A DNA stretch of 64,000 bases, from NCBI GenBank assembly GCA_049322915.1, contig JBMOPW010000003.1, forward strand, positions 21,801 to 85,800. Direction: 5' to 3'. The stretch's first letter is position 1; every line of letters begins with the position of its first letter. The translations under genes were made by a program, and so were the position numbers. Below the pieces are notes generated by a model. It searched no databases. It was not told the origin of the DNA and saw only the letters and a list, made by a program, of their open reading frames with translations. Of the stretch, positions 39,739-44,141 are shown piece after piece. This DNA is from Candidatus Zhuqueibacterota bacterium. GTDB taxonomy: Bacteria > Zhuqueibacterota > Zhuqueibacteria > Thermofontimicrobiales > Thermofontimicrobiaceae.

Positions 39739-40161
39739 ATGTCTTCGCAAAAATTCATTCAGTTAGACCATACCGGCGATTTAAGGGTGATGGTTTTTGG
39801 AAAATCATTAAAAGAACTGTTTGAAAATTCTGCCATCGCATTGTTCAGCCAGATTACGGACATCTCCCGGGTCAATCACGATTCCACGGACTCACTCCAC
39901 GTCACCGGTATCGATAAAGAAGAACTGCTGGTGAGCTGGCTTTCGGAATTGAATTATATGCATATAACCGAAGGAAAGTTGTTCAGTAAATTCGATATCT
40001 CCCATATCAGCGACACAAAGCTCACAGCCATCGCCTTTGGTGAAAAATATAATCCCTTCCGGCATTCGTCAGGTTTTGAAATCAAGGCGGTGACTTTTCA
40101 CGACCTGCAAATTGAGAAAAAAGACGATCTGTGGCAGACCAGGATCGTATTTGATATTTAA
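39739..40161 (+). CDS. Archease (RtcB activator)
   Basis: Start MSSQKFIQLDHTGDLRVMVFGKSLKELFENSAIALF (archease DHT(A/G)D N-terminal motif); 140 aa; immediately upstream of rtcB; the track ORF begins earlier with TTG. Confidence 0.75.
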   Translation: MSSQKFIQLDHTGDLRVMVFGKSLKELFENSAIALFSQITDISRVNHDSTDSLHVTGIDKEELLVSWLSELNYMHITEGKLFSKFDISHISDTKLTAIAFGEKYNPFRHSSGFEIKAVTFHDLQIEKKDDLWQTRIVFDI

Positions 40162-40418
40162 GCATTCACCGATTCATCGCGATGTGTTTCTGATCTGAAG
40201 GAAATGTCAGTAATGGGCGGGTCCGCGGCTCGGATATCGCAGCGCGTTCACGGCGCGCCGACTTGAATGCCACAGGCGCTCTTCAGTCGTGCCATCGGCA
40301 GATTGAGCAGCAGGATTGTAAATTTTTCGGCGCCAAGCCCGGTTCGATGGAATCCATCGAAGCAATATACATGCTGGCGCCTGGCGCAAACTAAACTGTG
40401 TGATATTAGAACTGAAAA

Positions 40419-40526
40419 TTAACCCTACAACGTCATTTAGTAAATTTATCACAATATGTTGAGTTTTTCATCTATCAAAAATACAATATACAACGATAAA
40501 AAATCTATGTGACGTAGTAGGGTTAA
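40419..40526 (-). mobile_element. MITE family B copy 2 (108 bp), inverted relative to copy 1, 18 bp upstream of the rtcB ATG
   Basis: Reverse complement of 2998-3105 with a single mismatch. Confidence 0.7.
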
Positions 40527-40544
40527 TGTAACAGGGCATACTCC

Positions 40545-41987
40545 ATGTCAGACGTGAAATTGAAAAAGATCAACGATTATCTCTGGGAAATTCCCAAGGA
40601 AGATAAAATGCATGTCCCCGGCCGGATTTACGCGACGCAAAAAATGCTGTCCCATATTCAGGAGGAGGATGCGCCGAAGCAGGTGCAAAATGTCGCGCAT
40701 TTGCCGGGCATTGTGGATTGGTCCATGGCCATGCCGGACATCCATTGGGGCTATGGTTTTCCCATCGGCGGCGTGGCTGCGTTCGATGTCGACGAGGGCG
40801 TGATTTCGCCCGGCGGCGTTGGTTATGACATTAACTGCGGGGTACGGCTGCTCAAAACACAATTGGTACGGAGCGACATTCAATCCAAAATCCAGTTGCT
40901 GGTCGCCAGCATGTTCAAATATATCCCGAGCGGCGTCGGTTCTTCCGGCCCATTGAAAACCAGCGATAGCGAATTGAAAAAGGTCATGGTGAAAGGAGCG
41001 CGCTGGGCGGTTCAGAACGGTTATGGCGACGAGGACGATCTCGATAAAATCGAGGAAAATGGAGAGATGCCGGGAGCTGACCCATCGACTGTCAGCCAGA
41101 AAGCCATCACGCGGGGCCGGCCGCAATTGGGCACTCTGGGCTCTGGCAACCATTTTGTTGAAATTCAATACATCGATAAAATTTTCGACGCGGAGCTGGG
41201 CCAGCGCCTGGGACTTTTCGAAGGCCAGATTACGGTGTCCATCCATACCGGATCGCGCGGATTTGGCTATCAAATCTGCGATGATTCCATTCACAAGATG
41301 ATTCTCGCTTCTCAGAAATACGGCATTGAACTGCCGGATCGGCAACTCTGCGCTGCGCCCATCACGTCGCCGGAGGGCAAAGAGTATTTTGCTGCCATGG
41401 TCTGCGCCGTCAACTACGCATTTGCCAATCGCCAGATCATCTCGCACTGGGTGGAAGAAGCATTCATCCGCTCGTTGAAATCAACTCCCAACCAGGTTAA
41501 ATTCAGCACGGTTTACGAAGTCGCCCACAATATTGCCAAATTCGAAACGCATATCGTGCATGGGAAAAAGCGAATGCTGTGCGTCCATCGAAAAGGCGCC
41601 ACCCGCGCATTTGGACCGGGCCGGGTTGAACTGCCGGAAATGTACCGCGACATCGGCCAGCCGGTGTTGATCCCCGGGGACATGGGCCGCAGTTCCTACG
41701 TGCTGATCGGCACCGAAGCAGCGATGGAACAGACGTTTGGTTCCACCTGTCACGGCGCCGGCCGGCTGATGAGTCGCAATAAAGCCATTCAACTGGCGCG
41801 CGGCCGATCGATCCAGAATGAACTGGCGCAGCAGGGAATTGAAGTGATGGCAGCGAGCCGGGCGACCCTGGCGGAAGAAATGCCCGAAGCCTACAAAGAT
41901 GTTTCCGATGTCGTCGAGGCTGTTGTCGGCGCCGGAATCTCGAAAAAGGTGGCCAGATTGCGCCCTATGGGCGTGATCAAAGGCTGA
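40545..41987 (+). CDS. rtcB: RNA-splicing ligase RtcB (long, archaeal/eukaryal-type, 480 aa)
   Basis: Motifs HWGYGFPIGGVAAFD, GYDINCGVRLL, GSGNHFVEIQ, CHGAGR; ATG start. Confidence 0.95.
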   Translation: MSDVKLKKINDYLWEIPKEDKMHVPGRIYATQKMLSHIQEEDAPKQVQNVAHLPGIVDWSMAMPDIHWGYGFPIGGVAAFDVDEGVISPGGVGYDINCGVRLLKTQLVRSDIQSKIQLLVASMFKYIPSGVGSSGPLKTSDSELKKVMVKGARWAVQNGYGDEDDLDKIEENGEMPGADPSTVSQKAITRGRPQLGTLGSGNHFVEIQYIDKIFDAELGQRLGLFEGQITVSIHTGSRGFGYQICDDSIHKMILASQKYGIELPDRQLCAAPITSPEGKEYFAAMVCAVNYAFANRQIISHWVEEAFIRSLKSTPNQVKFSTVYEVAHNIAKFETHIVHGKKRMLCVHRKGATRAFGPGRVELPEMYRDIGQPVLIPGDMGRSSYVLIGTEAAMEQTFGSTCHGAGRLMSRNKAIQLARGRSIQNELAQQGIEVMAASRATLAEEMPEAYKDVSDVVEAVVGAGISKKVARLRPMGVIKG

Positions 41988-42122
41988 GCCCGGAACGACG
42001 CGACACTGCTGCGCGTTGATGATGATTTGGAGCTTCGCCGCCGGCGCGTCACTGCTTTGCCAGTCGCCGGGTATACTTTTTCGTCGCACCTGCTTTGGAA
42101 CGAAATGAAATGGAGCCTATCC

Positions 42123-44141
42123 ATGATCCCTCAAGAAATACGCGACCGCGTGCAGAAACTTCGGGATGACATCAACACCCACAACTACCGCTATTACATC
42201 CTCGATGACCCGCAGGTCTCTGACGCCGAATACGACCGACTGATGCTCGAACTGCAACGCCTTGAGCAGCACTATCCGCAGCTCATCACGCCGGATTCTC
42301 CCAGTCAGCGCGTCGGGGCGACGCCGCTCGCTGCGTTCGAATCCGTGCAACATTCCCAGCCCATGCTGAGTCTGGACAATGGATTTTCCGAGGGCGACAT
42401 CAGGGAATTTGACGCGCGCATTCGGCGGCTTATGCCAGACCTTCACGAAATTGAATACGTCGCCGAGACAAAATTTGACGGGCTGGCTGTGGAACTGGTT
42501 TATGAAAATGGCGCATTCACCGTCGGCTCCACGCGCGGCGATGGCATCACCGGCGAAAATATCACGCAGAATTTGAAGACAATAAAATCCGTCCCTCTTC
42601 AGCTACTGAAAAATGCCATCCCTGTGCCGCAGCGATTGGAACTCCGCGGCGAAGTGATCATCGGCAATCAGGACTTCAAAAAGCTGAACAAAGAGCGGGA
42701 GCAATCCGGCGAGCCGATCTTTGCCAATCCCCGCAATGCAGCCGCCGGCTCGTTGCGCCAGTTGGATCCTAAAATCACGGCCTCGCGGCCTCTGGATATT
42801 TTCTTCCACGGCGTCGGCCAGGTCACCGGGATCGAATTTGCCACCCACCTCCAATTTTTGGAAACCATCCGGCAGTGGGGGTTGAAGGTGAGTCCCATCC
42901 GTCGCCTGTGCCGGAGTTTGGATGAACTCTTCCAATTCTACGCCGAACTCATGGAGCAGCGCGATCATTTGCCCTATGAAATAGACGGCATGGTGATCAA
43001 AGTGAATCGTTTTGCGCTGCGCGAAGAAATCGGCATAAAATCCCGCAGCCCGCGCTGGGCCATTGCCTACAAATTTCCGGCGCGACAGGAGGTGACGCAA
43101 ATCCGCGACATCCAGGTGCAGGTGGGCCGCACCGGCACATTGACCCCGGTGGCGATCATGGCGCCGGTCCGAATCGGCGGCGTCGAAGTGAGTCGCGCCA
43201 CGCTGCACAATCAGGATGAAATCGATAAAAAGGACATTCGCATTGGCGACTGGGTGGTTGTGCAGCGCGCCGGGGATGTGATCCCTGAAGTCGTGAAAGT
43301 CGTCGAGAGCCGGCGCACCGGCGCGGAGAGACAATTTCACATCCCGGCGACCTGCCCGGTCTGCGGCGCTCATGTGGTCCGACTGGAGGGCGAAGCCGCG
43401 CATCGCTGCCAGAATCTCTCCTGTCCGGCGCAGATCAAACAGCAAATTCAACATTTTGCCAGCCGAACGGCCATGGATATCGAGGGACTGGGAGCAAAAT
43501 TGGTCGATCAATTGGTCGAAAAAGGCAAAGCGACCACGGTGGCTGACCTCTATTTTCTCACCAAAGACGACTGGTCAAATCTGGAGCGCATGGCGGAAAA
43601 ATCAGCTCAGAACATTGTGGCCGCGCTGGAAAAAAGCAAGCGCATCGCCCTGGACCGATTCATCTACAGTCTCGGCATTCGTTTCGTGGGCGAGCGAACG
43701 GCGCGACTGCTGGCCGACCATTTCAAAACGCTGGATCATTTCAAACAGGCGACCTACGACGCGCTTCTCTCCATCCACGAAATCGGCCCCCAGAGCGCGC
43801 AGAGCATCACGCAATTTCTGGATGAACCGAAGAACATGCAGACCATCGACAAGCTGTTAGCCGCGGGTGTGACCATTGAGAGCAGGGAACCGGCCACCAG
43901 CGGCATATTCAGCGGGAAGACGTTTGTTTTCACTGGGACGCTGGAAATTTTCACCCGCCACGAAGCCGAAGCGCTGGTCGTTTCCCTGGGCGGACAGGCT
44001 GCTTCTTCGGTGAGCCGCAAAACCGATTTTGTTGTGGTTGGACAAAATGCCGGGTCCAAAGCGGACAAAGCGAGGGAGTTGGGAATTCCGATTCTCTCGG
44101 AGGAGGAATTCAAGCGGATGGTCGGCGGGACCAATCCATGA
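42123..44141 (+). CDS. ligA: NAD-dependent DNA ligase LigA
   Basis: Adenylation motif [13 protein letters not shown] (KxDG); N-terminal Ia domain; C-terminal Zn-finger CPVCGAHV...C, HhH and BRCT; start taken at ATG 42123 with GGAG RBS. Confidence 0.95.

What the first reader, a model, noticed from the sequence alone, without database searches (positions are those of the whole stretch)
39739..44141. Archease plus long-form RtcB plus LigA cluster, with an Lhr helicase nearby
RtcB here is the 480-aa form that in archaea and eukaryotes depends on archease, and the archease gene sits directly upstream. No RtcA or RtcR is present in the window. ligA follows 135 bp downstream on the same strand, and a 1489-aa Lhr-type helicase lies 2.3 kb further on. 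This co-localisation of RNA-ligation and DNA-repair functions is not a commonly described operon arrangement.
Basis: partly seen in the sequence, partly recalled or inferred. Interest (0 to 1): 0.5.

Follow-up and report, generated by a model that had tools for sequence, protein, structure and literature searches.

The report
Archease–RtcB RNA ligase pair beside ligA
This is an ordinary, already described bacterial gene pair (the RNA-sealing enzyme RtcB and its helper archease). In this bacterial lineage it sits next to the housekeeping DNA ligase gene through inherited gene order, and the nearby Lhr helicase is unconnected.

Summary
Archease (39739-40161), a 480-aa archaeal/eukaryal-type RtcB (40545-41987) and a complete NAD-dependent LigA (42123-44141) lie on the + strand. 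A 1489-aa Lhr lies 2.3 kb further on, but on the opposite strand. No rtcA or rtcR is in the window.

The contig is a Candidatus Zhuqueibacterota MAG (FCB superphylum, close to KSB1).

In 163 non-redundant RtcB loci:
- Archease adjoins rtcB in about two thirds of distant bacteria and archaea, and in 14 of 15 close relatives. This operon was published in 2014-2015.
- ligA directly follows rtcB in 9 of 15 close relatives, but in only 1 of 111 distant loci.
- In one relative's assembly, archease-rtcB and ligA lie on different contigs. There ligA keeps its own neighbours, an M50B-like membrane protein and a threonine aldolase.
- Lhr is nearby in only one other locus.

The conserved unit is therefore archease-rtcB. 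ligA is a lineage-level neighbour, possibly co-transcribed in some relatives where the gap is 24-42 bp. Lhr is unrelated.

The one local oddity is the 383-bp archease-rtcB spacer, against 26-150 bp in most relatives. It carries a 110-nt palindromic repeat with a 99% identical second copy at 2997-3106.

Interest is low.

The parts
39643..39673 (+). Promoter-like motif (TTG-N20-TATCTTTA, the Bacteroidota/FCB type), 66 nt upstream of the archease ATG
   Evidence: It lies in one of only two conserved blocks in the manC-archease intergenic alignment of six relatives. It is the only + strand match to TTG-N18-21-TAnnTTT between 39200 and 46500. Promoter function is inferred, not shown.
39739..40161 (+). 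Archease, 140 aa, the RtcB activation cofactor
   Evidence: PF01951 at 1.5e-39. Matches P. horikoshii archease 4N2P at 1.2e-20. H11, D14, K116, D139 and the C-terminal I140 align with Pho H9, D12, K117, D141 and I142, whose mutation abolishes RtcB activation.
40162..40417 (.). 256-nt GC-richer spacer of unknown origin
   Evidence: No significant fold on either strand (z -0.9 and -0.4). No Rfam hit. No similarity to relatives or to the MazG-like gene that occupies this position in L172.
40418..40527 (.). 110-nt palindromic, MITE-like dispersed repeat ending 17 nt before the rtcB ATG
   Evidence: 54-nt arms with near-perfect 18-nt termini, ATTAACCCTACAACGTCA. A second copy at 2997-3106 is 99% identical, with unrelated flanks. 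Hairpin z-score -6.9. Absent from the 172 related loci and from viral contigs.
40545..41987 (+). RtcB, 480 aa, a 3'-phosphate/5'-OH RNA ligase of the archaeal/eukaryal (archease-dependent) type
   Evidence: PF01139 at 1.9e-175. 595 bits, full length, to P. horikoshii RtcB. D65, D95, C98, N202, H203, H234, H328, H403 and K479 align with the Pho metal-binding, GMP-attachment and guanine-binding residues.
42123..44141 (+). LigA, 672 aa, the NAD-dependent DNA ligase (housekeeping type)
   Evidence: Domains Ia, adenylation, OB, Zn, HhH and BRCT are all present. NCBIfam LigA equivalog at 908 bits, cut-off 369. A KFDG motif is present.
44333..45190 (+). 285-aa polytopic membrane protein with a HELSH motif (M50B-like). 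It is a conserved downstream neighbour of ligA, not of rtcB.
   Evidence: No Pfam or NCBIfam hit for this protein itself. 86 homologues, mainly KSB1/Calditrichota; 8 of 23 aligned family members hit PF13398 Peptidase_M50B. It follows ligA in L089, L090, L091, L168, L170 and L171.
45200..46234 (-). PLP-dependent threonine-aldolase-like gene, an unrelated neighbour
   Evidence: PF01212 at 4e-110. NCBIfam GntG and low-specificity L-threonine aldolase models.
46406..50875 (-). Lhr, 1489 aa, a long-form helicase. It is convergent to the ligA block and is not part of it.
   Evidence: Pfam DEAD, Helicase_C, WH_Lhr, DEAD_assoc, WH3_Lhr and WH4_Lhr. Its own promoter-like motif lies at 50919-50888. It is nearby only in L090 among related loci.
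2997..3106 (.). Second copy of the 110-nt palindromic repeat, in the opposite orientation

Best explanation
The locus holds a standard bacterial archease-rtcB RNA-ligation pair.

**Mechanism (by homology).** RtcB uses GTP and Mn2+ to form a covalent His-GMP (His403 here). It transfers GMP to an RNA 3'-phosphate, made from a 2',3'-cyclic phosphate if needed, and then lets the 5'-OH end attack to seal the break. Archease, through its His/Asp/Lys/C-terminal carboxylate tip, reloads RtcB with GMP so that the enzyme can turn over many times. No bacterial tRNA-splicing endonuclease pathway is known, so the likely job is repair of cleaved tRNA, rRNA or mRNA.

**Regulation (inferred).** The pair is probably driven by a conserved FCB-type housekeeping promoter upstream of archease. 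It does not look like the RtcR/sigma-54 stress circuit of E. coli.

**Neighbours.**
- ligA downstream is the ordinary replicative and repair DNA ligase. It lies next to rtcB because of gene order inherited within the KSB1/Zhuqueibacterota clade. It may be read through from rtcB in some relatives, but it is not a required partner.
- Lhr is an independent gene transcribed convergently.

The gene identities, the conserved residues and the synteny pattern are shown here. The enzymology, the promoter and the physiological substrate are inferred from homologues.
For: - **Gene identities and catalytic residues:**
- **Published biology:** the archease-rtcB operon is reported in diverse bacteria and archaea, and archease dependence of a bacterial RtcB has been shown (PMC3973293, PMC4604427).
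- **Archease adjacency:** archease adjoins rtcB in 89 of 134 assessable distant loci and 14 of 15 close ones.
- **ligA adjacency:** 9 of 15 close loci, 1 of 111 distant loci.
- **Separability:** in GCA_034506055.1, archease-rtcB sits with the manC block on one contig (L005), and ligA-orf285-aldolase sits on another (L171).
- **Variable spacing:** the rtcB-ligA gap ranges from 24 to about 600 bp among relatives.
- **Lhr:** opposite strand, and conserved nearby only in L090.
- **No E. coli-type circuit:** no rtcA or rtcR and no sigma-54 promoter enrichment (57 matches against 70.5 expected).
- **Promoter-like block:** a conserved block lies upstream of archease.
Against: - The archease-rtcB spacer is 383 bp with a long hairpin-forming repeat just before rtcB, so co-transcription of even the core pair is not certain in this genome.
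- Tight rtcB-ligA spacing in L089 (24 bp) and L170 (42 bp) suggests a real transcriptional link in parts of the clade. So does a separate lineage with the order rtcB-archease-ligA (L096).
- No transcript data exist.
- The rest of the genome could not be searched for rtcA, rtcR, a second RtcB or intron-containing tRNAs.
Confidence: 0.8

Rival explanations
1. archease-rtcB-ligA, possibly with the M50B-like gene, is a genuine co-transcribed 'break-sealing' operon of the KSB1/Zhuqueibacterota clade. It would pair a 3'-P/5'-OH ligase with a 3'-OH/5'-P ligase, so that both chemistries of strand break, perhaps including DNA breaks, are handled together.
For: - All genes are on the same strand, and the order is conserved in 9 of 15 close relatives.
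- The rtcB-ligA gaps of 24 and 42 bp in L089 and L170 leave little room for a promoter.
- No FCB-type promoter motif and no terminator-like site lies between archease and orf285 on the + strand of the window.
- L096, a distant RtcB lineage at 60% identity, has rtcB-archease-ligA.
- RtcB can join 5'-OH DNA and cap DNA 3'-P ends in vitro, and a DNA-damage survival role has been suggested (PMC8051266 abstract; PMC10630183).
Against: - The junction is broken in a whole sub-lineage (L004-L007, L088, L169). There ligA keeps orf285 and the aldolase, not rtcB.
- ligA is absent downstream in 109 of 111 distant loci.
- The spacing varies up to about 600 bp.
- The promoter motif precedes only about 8 of 38 genes in the window, so its absence says little.
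- Being co-transcribed with an essential housekeeping gene does not imply a shared function.
- Whether L096 is truly independent is unproven. Its ligA is also followed by an M50-family protease, which may reflect shared ancestry.
Confidence: 0.12
2. The cluster includes Lhr: a helicase plus ligase DNA-damage module, like the 'ligase-associated DEXH helicase' systems, with RtcB recruited to it.
For: - An Lhr-family helicase lies 2.3 kb from ligA.
- The same layout occurs in L090.
- Lhr gives a partial hit to the ligase-associated DEXH helicase model TIGR04121.
Against: - Lhr is on the opposite strand, separated by a membrane protease-like gene and an aldolase.
- It scores 446 bits against a cut-off of 850 for TIGR04121.
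- Lhr is absent within 10 kb in L001, L008, L009, L089, L168, L170, L171 and L172.
- It has its own promoter-like motif.
Confidence: 0.03
3. The adjacency is pure chance and specific to this genome.
For: The variable intergenic distances and the unrelated functions of the neighbouring genes.
Against: Nine distinct relatives at 64-85% RtcB identity share the order.
Confidence: 0.02

Closest known systems
Archease-RtcB 'tRNA splicing operon' of P. horikoshii, T. thermophilus and diverse bacteria (Desai et al. 2014, PMC3973293; Desai et al. 2015, PMC4604427)
   Same: - The same two families, adjacent on one strand.
- RtcB aligns full length with the P. horikoshii and T. thermophilus enzymes, and all active-site residues are kept.
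- Archease keeps the His, Asp, Lys and C-terminal Asp-Ile residues needed for activation.
   Different: - The spacer is unusually long (383 bp) and carries a palindromic repeat.
- The host is a new phylum (Zhuqueibacterota).
- ligA lies in line downstream.
- No biochemical data exist for these proteins.
E. coli/Salmonella rtcBA operon, controlled by RtcR and sigma-54
   Same: It contains an RtcB-family ligase thought to repair damaged RNA.
   Different: - The E. coli enzyme is the short, archease-less type. The window protein reaches only 183 of the 407 bits needed for that model.
- No rtcA, no RtcR and no sigma-54 promoter are present here.
Ligase-associated DNA damage response cluster (Lhr-like DEXH helicase TIGR04121 with an ATP-dependent DNA ligase)
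   Same: An Lhr-family helicase lies near a DNA ligase gene.
   Different: - The ligase here is NAD-dependent LigA, not an ATP-dependent ligase.
- The helicase is on the opposite strand, 2.3 kb away.
- The helicase scores below the model's cut-off.
- The neighbourhood is not conserved.
Pnkp/Hen1 bacterial RNA repair system
   Same: It is a two-protein RNA-break repair module in which a partner protein activates the ligase. The 2014 archease paper draws this analogy.
   Different: - The protein families are unrelated.
- The end chemistry differs: healing followed by 5'-P/3'-OH sealing.
- It adds a 2'-O-methyl mark.

Membership tests
Archease (PF01951) | Profile match above the curated cut-off over the full length | tested here: met
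   136 bits against a cut-off of 25, covering residues 8-140. NCBIfam PRK00407 at 130 against 126 bits.
Archease (PF01951) | Functional residues needed for RtcB activation: the N-terminal His and Asp, the Lys near the metal site, and the penultimate Asp with a free C-terminal carboxylate | tested here: met
   H11, D14, K116, D139 and the terminal I140 align with Pho H9, D12, K117, D141 and I142 (alignment; mutagenesis data from PMC3973293).
Archease (PF01951) | Stimulates guanylylation and multiple turnover of the cognate RtcB | not testable with these tools
   Needs an enzyme assay.
RtcB, archaeal/eukaryal (archease-dependent) type | Full-length similarity to P. horikoshii, T. thermophilus and human RtcB rather than to the short E. 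coli type | tested here: met
   595 bits to 1UC2 over residues 4-480, 583 bits to TTHA1785, 440 bits to human RTCB. The E. coli-type model PRK09588 gives 183 bits against a cut-off of 407.
RtcB, archaeal/eukaryal (archease-dependent) type | Metal-binding Cys/His/Asp residues and the GMP-accepting His | tested here: met
   D65, D95, C98, N202, H203, H234, H328 and H403 are identical in the alignment to Pho RtcB. They are invariant in the 12-sequence alignment A2. The residue roles come from my knowledge of the Pho RtcB structures.
RtcB, archaeal/eukaryal (archease-dependent) type | GTP/Mn-dependent 3'-P/5'-OH ligation that depends on archease | not testable with these tools
   Needs an enzyme assay.
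Archease-rtcB operon | The two genes are adjacent on the same strand, and this is conserved across relatives | tested here: met
   Adjacent in 14 of 15 close and 89 of 134 distant assessable loci.
Archease-rtcB operon | Co-transcription (short spacer, no internal terminator or promoter) | tested here: inconclusive
   The spacer is 383 bp, against 26-150 bp in most relatives. No terminator-like site lies on the + strand. A long repeat hairpin ends 17 nt before the rtcB ATG. No transcript data.
E. coli-type Rtc system (rtcR-rtcBA) | An rtcA cyclase gene next to rtcB | tested here: not met
   No RTC-family hit among about 38 window ORFs. The rest of the genome was not searchable.
E. coli-type Rtc system (rtcR-rtcBA) | An RtcR activator and a sigma-54 promoter | tested here: not met
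   The only sigma-54 activator is NtrC-type, 17 kb away. The TGGCAC-N5-TTGC scan found no match with fewer than 2 mismatches near the genes, and 57 matches window-wide against 70.5 expected by chance.
NAD-dependent DNA ligase LigA | The full domain set (Ia, NTase, OB, Zn finger, HhH, BRCT) and an equivalog score above cut-off | tested here: met
   908 bits against a cut-off of 369. KFDG motif seen in the sequence.
Lhr helicase (long form) | A DEAD/Helicase_C core, the Lhr winged-helix and DEAD_assoc domains, and the C-terminal WH3/WH4 domains | tested here: met
   The E. coli Lhr equivalog PRK09751 gives 996 bits, below its cut-off of 1496. It is therefore a family member, but not a certified equivalog.
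Ligase-associated DEXH helicase cluster (TIGR04121) | The helicase scores above the model cut-off and sits in an operon with an ATP-dependent ligase | tested here: not met
   446 bits against a cut-off of 850. The ligase is NAD-dependent, on the opposite strand, with two unrelated genes in between.

The most novel reading that the evidence does not exclude
In the KSB1/Zhuqueibacterota clade, archease, rtcB and ligA are transcribed as one constitutive unit that supplies both polarities of strand-break sealing: 3'-P/5'-OH by RtcB and 3'-OH/5'-P by LigA. RtcB would then contribute to DNA-end repair as well as RNA repair. A second lineage (L096) would have reached the same linkage independently.
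Probability: 0.1. Interest if true: 0.45.

Novelty: new member of a known kind. Interest (0 to 1): 0.17.

Why it matters
It matters little beyond annotation. The result extends the known archease-RtcB pair to a recently named phylum. It also suggests that the pair runs from a housekeeping-type promoter there, without the RtcR stress switch, which fits a constitutive RNA-repair role.

The clade-level placement of the essential ligA directly behind rtcB is a modest lead. If read-through transcription is real, RtcB would have to be expressed all the time in these bacteria, unlike in E. coli. That would make them a convenient place to ask what bacterial archease-dependent RtcB repairs.

Tried and rejected
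- **Known RNA in the spacer or elsewhere.** Rfam at gathering thresholds over the whole window, Rfam with a permissive E-value over 39250-40600, and a tRNA scan found nothing real. The only hits were hairpin matches to plant miRNA models caused by the palindrome.
- **Structured RNA in the 256-nt spacer.** No significant fold on either strand.
- **Decayed MazG-like gene.** L172 carries such a gene in this position, but tblastn and blastn found no similarity in the window spacer.
- **Other coding remnant in the spacer.** tblastx against all loci found nothing below E = 0.09.
- **Sigma-54 promoter.** No enrichment and no good site near the genes.
- **Conserved intercistronic RNA between archease and rtcB.** Hairpins occur in L091 and L009 (z -3.0 and -2.4), but they are not homologous and are missing in other loci.
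- **Homology between orf285 and the M50 protease that follows ligA in L096.** Only the HExxH stretch aligns (BLASTP E = 0.65; hhalign probability 25%).
- **Further copies of the palindromic repeat.** None in viral contigs or in the 172 related loci.
- **FCB-type promoter motif as a test for operon boundaries.** It precedes too few genes in the window for its absence to mean anything.
- **A neighbour-joining tree of RtcB.** The first attempt timed out. A pairwise-identity table replaced it.

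
Full report
**1. What is there**

The reported genes exist at the reported coordinates.

- **Archease.** ORF 39643-40161 contains an ATG at 39739 that opens a 140-aa archease (PF01951, 1.5e-39).
- **RtcB.** 40545-41987 encodes a 480-aa RtcB (PF01139, 1.9e-175).
- **LigA.** ORF 42027-44141, with its likely start at ATG 42123, encodes a complete NAD-dependent DNA ligase. It has the Ia, adenylation, OB, Zn-finger, HhH and BRCT domains.
- **Lhr.** 46406-50875 encodes a 1489-aa Lhr with all the Lhr-specific winged-helix domains. It is on the minus strand.
- **NCBIfam.** The models agree: LigA equivalog 908 bits against a cut-off of 369, archease 130 against 126. 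RtcB resembles the archaeal type and reaches only 183 of the 407 bits needed for the E. coli type.
- **Genes between ligA and lhr.** There are two unrelated genes. One is a 285-aa membrane protein with a HELSH motif (44333-45190, +). The other is a threonine-aldolase-like PLP enzyme (45200-46234, -).
- **Rest of the window.** Pfam scans of about 38 ORFs found no RNA cyclase and no RtcR. The one sigma-54 activator, at 58781-60148, is NtrC-type. The window has no tRNA gene and no Rfam match at gathering thresholds.

**2. Are the proteins likely to be active?**

- RtcB aligns over residues 4-480 with P. horikoshii RtcB (481 aa, 595 bits). It aligns nearly as well with T. thermophilus TTHA1785.
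- The metal-binding and GMP-attachment residues are identical: D65, D95, C98, N202, H203, H234, H328 and H403.
- In the alignment with P. horikoshii archease, H11, D14, K116, D139 and the C-terminal I140 match H9, D12, K117, D141 and I142. Desai et al. showed that these residues are needed to activate RtcB (PMC3973293).

Both proteins therefore look functional.

**3. Whose genome is it?**

The RtcB is 100% identical to a protein named by NCBI as coming from a Candidatus Zhuqueibacterota MAG, on a 164-kb contig. Its nearest relatives are labelled candidate division KSB1. Zhuqueibacterota is a recently proposed phylum of the FCB superphylum (PMC11683472).

**4. Synteny**

I collected 172 loci:

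| Source | Number |
|---|---|
| Species-representative genomes | 80 |
| Metagenomes | 80 |
| Look-ups of individual homologues | 12 |

I located the window's proteins in these loci by tblastn. After removing near-identical RtcBs, 163 loci remained.

| RtcB identity to the window | Archease adjacent to rtcB | ligA directly downstream of rtcB |
|---|---|---|
| Below 62% (many bacterial phyla and some archaea) | 89 of 134 assessable | 1 of 111 (L096, order rtcB-archease-ligA); 1 more at 6.7 kb (L013) |
| 62-85% (the KSB1/Zhuqueibacterota clade) | 14 of 15 assessable | 9 of 15 (L001, L008, L009, L089, L090, L091, L168, L170, L172) |

The six close loci without ligA downstream include a coherent sub-lineage (L004-L007, L088, L169). 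In it a PAS histidine-kinase gene follows rtcB.

The informative case is assembly GCA_034506055.1.
- Contig 2 carries amidase, Zn-ribbon, EIIA, orf84 and manC on one strand, with archease-rtcB on the other (L005).
- Contig 14 carries ligA, the orf285 homologue and the aldolase (L171).

So there are two separately conserved blocks. One is manC-side plus archease-rtcB. The other is ligA plus the membrane protein and the aldolase. They abut in most of the clade and are split in one branch. When they split, ligA stays with its downstream neighbours and not with rtcB.

Lhr follows the aldolase only in the window and in L090. In L168, L170 and L171 a DUF2179 gene takes that place. In L001, L008, L009, L089 and L172 no Lhr lies within reach.

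**5. Transcription signals**

- **Conserved blocks.** The manC-archease intergenic region aligns poorly among six relatives, apart from two blocks. Both match the Bacteroidota/FCB-type promoter pattern TTG-N18-21-TAnnTTT (the consensus is from my own knowledge). One points to archease (39643-39673, 66 nt before the ATG). The other points to manC (39523-39493).
- **Third match.** Another match lies 13 nt before the lhr ATG (50919-50888).
- **Absences.** No match precedes rtcB, ligA or orf285, and no terminator-like site lies on the + strand between 39200 and 44400. The motif precedes only about 8 of 38 genes in the window, so its absence is weak evidence.
- **Sigma-54.** There is no sigma-54 signal. 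TGGCAC-N5-TTGC with up to 2 mismatches gave 57 matches against 70.5 expected.
- **rtcB-ligA gap among relatives.** 24 bp (L089), 42 (L170), 104 (L168), 135 (window), about 200 (L001), 287 (L172) and about 600 (L009). Read-through into ligA is therefore plausible in some relatives and undecided here.

**6. The local oddity**

- **Spacer length.** The archease-rtcB spacer is 383 bp here, against 26-150 bp in L004, L005, L008, L009 and L088-L091.
- **The repeat.** The last 110 nt of the spacer (40418-40527) form a long imperfect palindrome with near-perfect 18-nt termini. A copy 99% identical lies at 2997-3106 in the opposite orientation, with unrelated flanks. This makes it a small dispersed, MITE-like repeat.
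- **Fold.** It folds into a hairpin with z = -6.9. It has no U-tract, so it does not look like an intrinsic terminator.
- **The other 256 nt.** They show no significant fold, no Rfam match and no similarity to anything sampled.
- **The closest relative.** In L172 (RtcB 85% identical), a 105-aa MazG-like gene occupies this position. The window spacer shows no trace of it. This spacer seems to tolerate insertions.

**7. Interpretation**

- **Core unit.** The conserved functional unit is archease-rtcB. That operon was reported for 'diverse bacteria and archaea' in 2014, and archease dependence of a bacterial RtcB (T. thermophilus) was shown in 2015 (PMC3973293, PMC4604427).
- **Mechanism, inferred by homology.** Archease promotes guanylylation of the RtcB histidine. 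GMP is passed to the RNA 3'-phosphate, and the 5'-OH end then attacks to form the bond.
- **Likely role.** Bacteria are not known to use protein-catalysed tRNA splicing, so repair of cleaved RNAs is the likely role. That part is inference.
- **ligA.** It is the housekeeping ligase, placed next to rtcB by inherited gene order in one clade.
- **The more interesting reading.** A deliberate 'both-polarity' break-sealing operon, with RtcB perhaps acting on DNA ends, is not excluded. RtcB joins 5'-OH DNA and caps DNA 3'-P ends in vitro, and a DNA-damage role has been suggested in Salmonella (PMC8051266, PMC10630183). L096 also shows a second arrangement with ligA. Against it stand the separability seen in GCA_034506055.1 and the near absence of the link outside the clade. 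I give it about 0.1.
- **Lhr.** A role in the cluster is not supported.

**8. Verdict**

- This is a new member, in a new phylum, of a known kind of operon, with a clade-specific housekeeping neighbour.
- Interest is low.

Noticed in passing
window 40418-40527 and 2997-3106: A 110-nt palindromic, MITE-like repeat with termini ATTAACCCTACAACGTCA. The two copies are 99% identical, in opposite orientations, with unrelated flanks. One ends 17 nt before the rtcB ATG; the other lies about 390 nt beyond the stop codon (3495) of the minus-strand photolyase gene (3495-4880). No copy was found in 172 related loci or in viral contigs.
   Followed up: partly
window 40162-40417: 256 nt of extra, GC-richer sequence between archease and the repeat. 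It has no detectable homology, coding signal or significant RNA fold. Most relatives have only 26-150 nt in this position.
   Followed up: partly
L172 7698-8015: In the closest relative (RtcB 85% identical), a 105-aa MazG-like NTP pyrophosphohydrolase gene (PF03819, 1.7e-07) sits between archease and rtcB. This is an intriguing neighbour for a GTP-using ligase. It was seen only in this locus.
   Followed up: partly
window 44333-45190; L089, L090, L091, L168, L170, L171; L096 14394-15560: A clade-restricted 285-aa membrane protein family has invariant HExxH plus further invariant or near-invariant His, Ser and Asp residues. The window protein has no Pfam hit, but distant family members hit Peptidase_M50B. 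It always follows ligA. In the unrelated locus L096, ligA is followed by a canonical M50+CBS protease that shares only the HELSH stretch.
   Followed up: partly
window 39493-39523 (-) and 39643-39673 (+); 50888-50919 (-): Conserved divergent promoter-like motifs of the Bacteroidota/FCB type (TTG-N18-21-TAnnTTT) lie in front of manC and archease. A similar motif lies 13 nt before the lhr start codon, which would make that mRNA nearly leaderless.
   Followed up: partly
window 27484-27498 (-): A perfect sigma-54 -24/-12 consensus (TGGCACGTCAGTTGC) directly abuts the longest-ORF start of an ORF with no Pfam family (26917-27483, -). An NtrC-type sigma-54 activator lies at 58781-60148.
   Followed up: no
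L091 3957-4076; L009 9881-10000: Non-homologous but stable hairpins (z -3.0 and -2.4) lie in the archease-rtcB spacer of some relatives. They may be independent intercistronic stem-loops.
   Followed up: partly
L172 about 9492-9778: The rtcB-ligA spacer of the closest relative contains a run of degenerate short repeats (CGTCTTGC / CTCTTGCTTCT and similar).
   Followed up: no
window 10334-12220 and 16016-17629 (-): Two paralogous proteins combine a beta-propeller (Vgb_lyase/DUF6923-like) with a transglutaminase-like core. They flank a gene for a T9SS-sorted BNR-repeat protein and a Na+/H+ antiporter gene.
   Followed up: no
window 18001-20000: A low-GC stretch (0.35, against about 0.5 for the window) around an RpiR-family regulator gene and an M23 peptidase gene. 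It holds a cluster of six promoter-like motifs on both strands.
   Followed up: no
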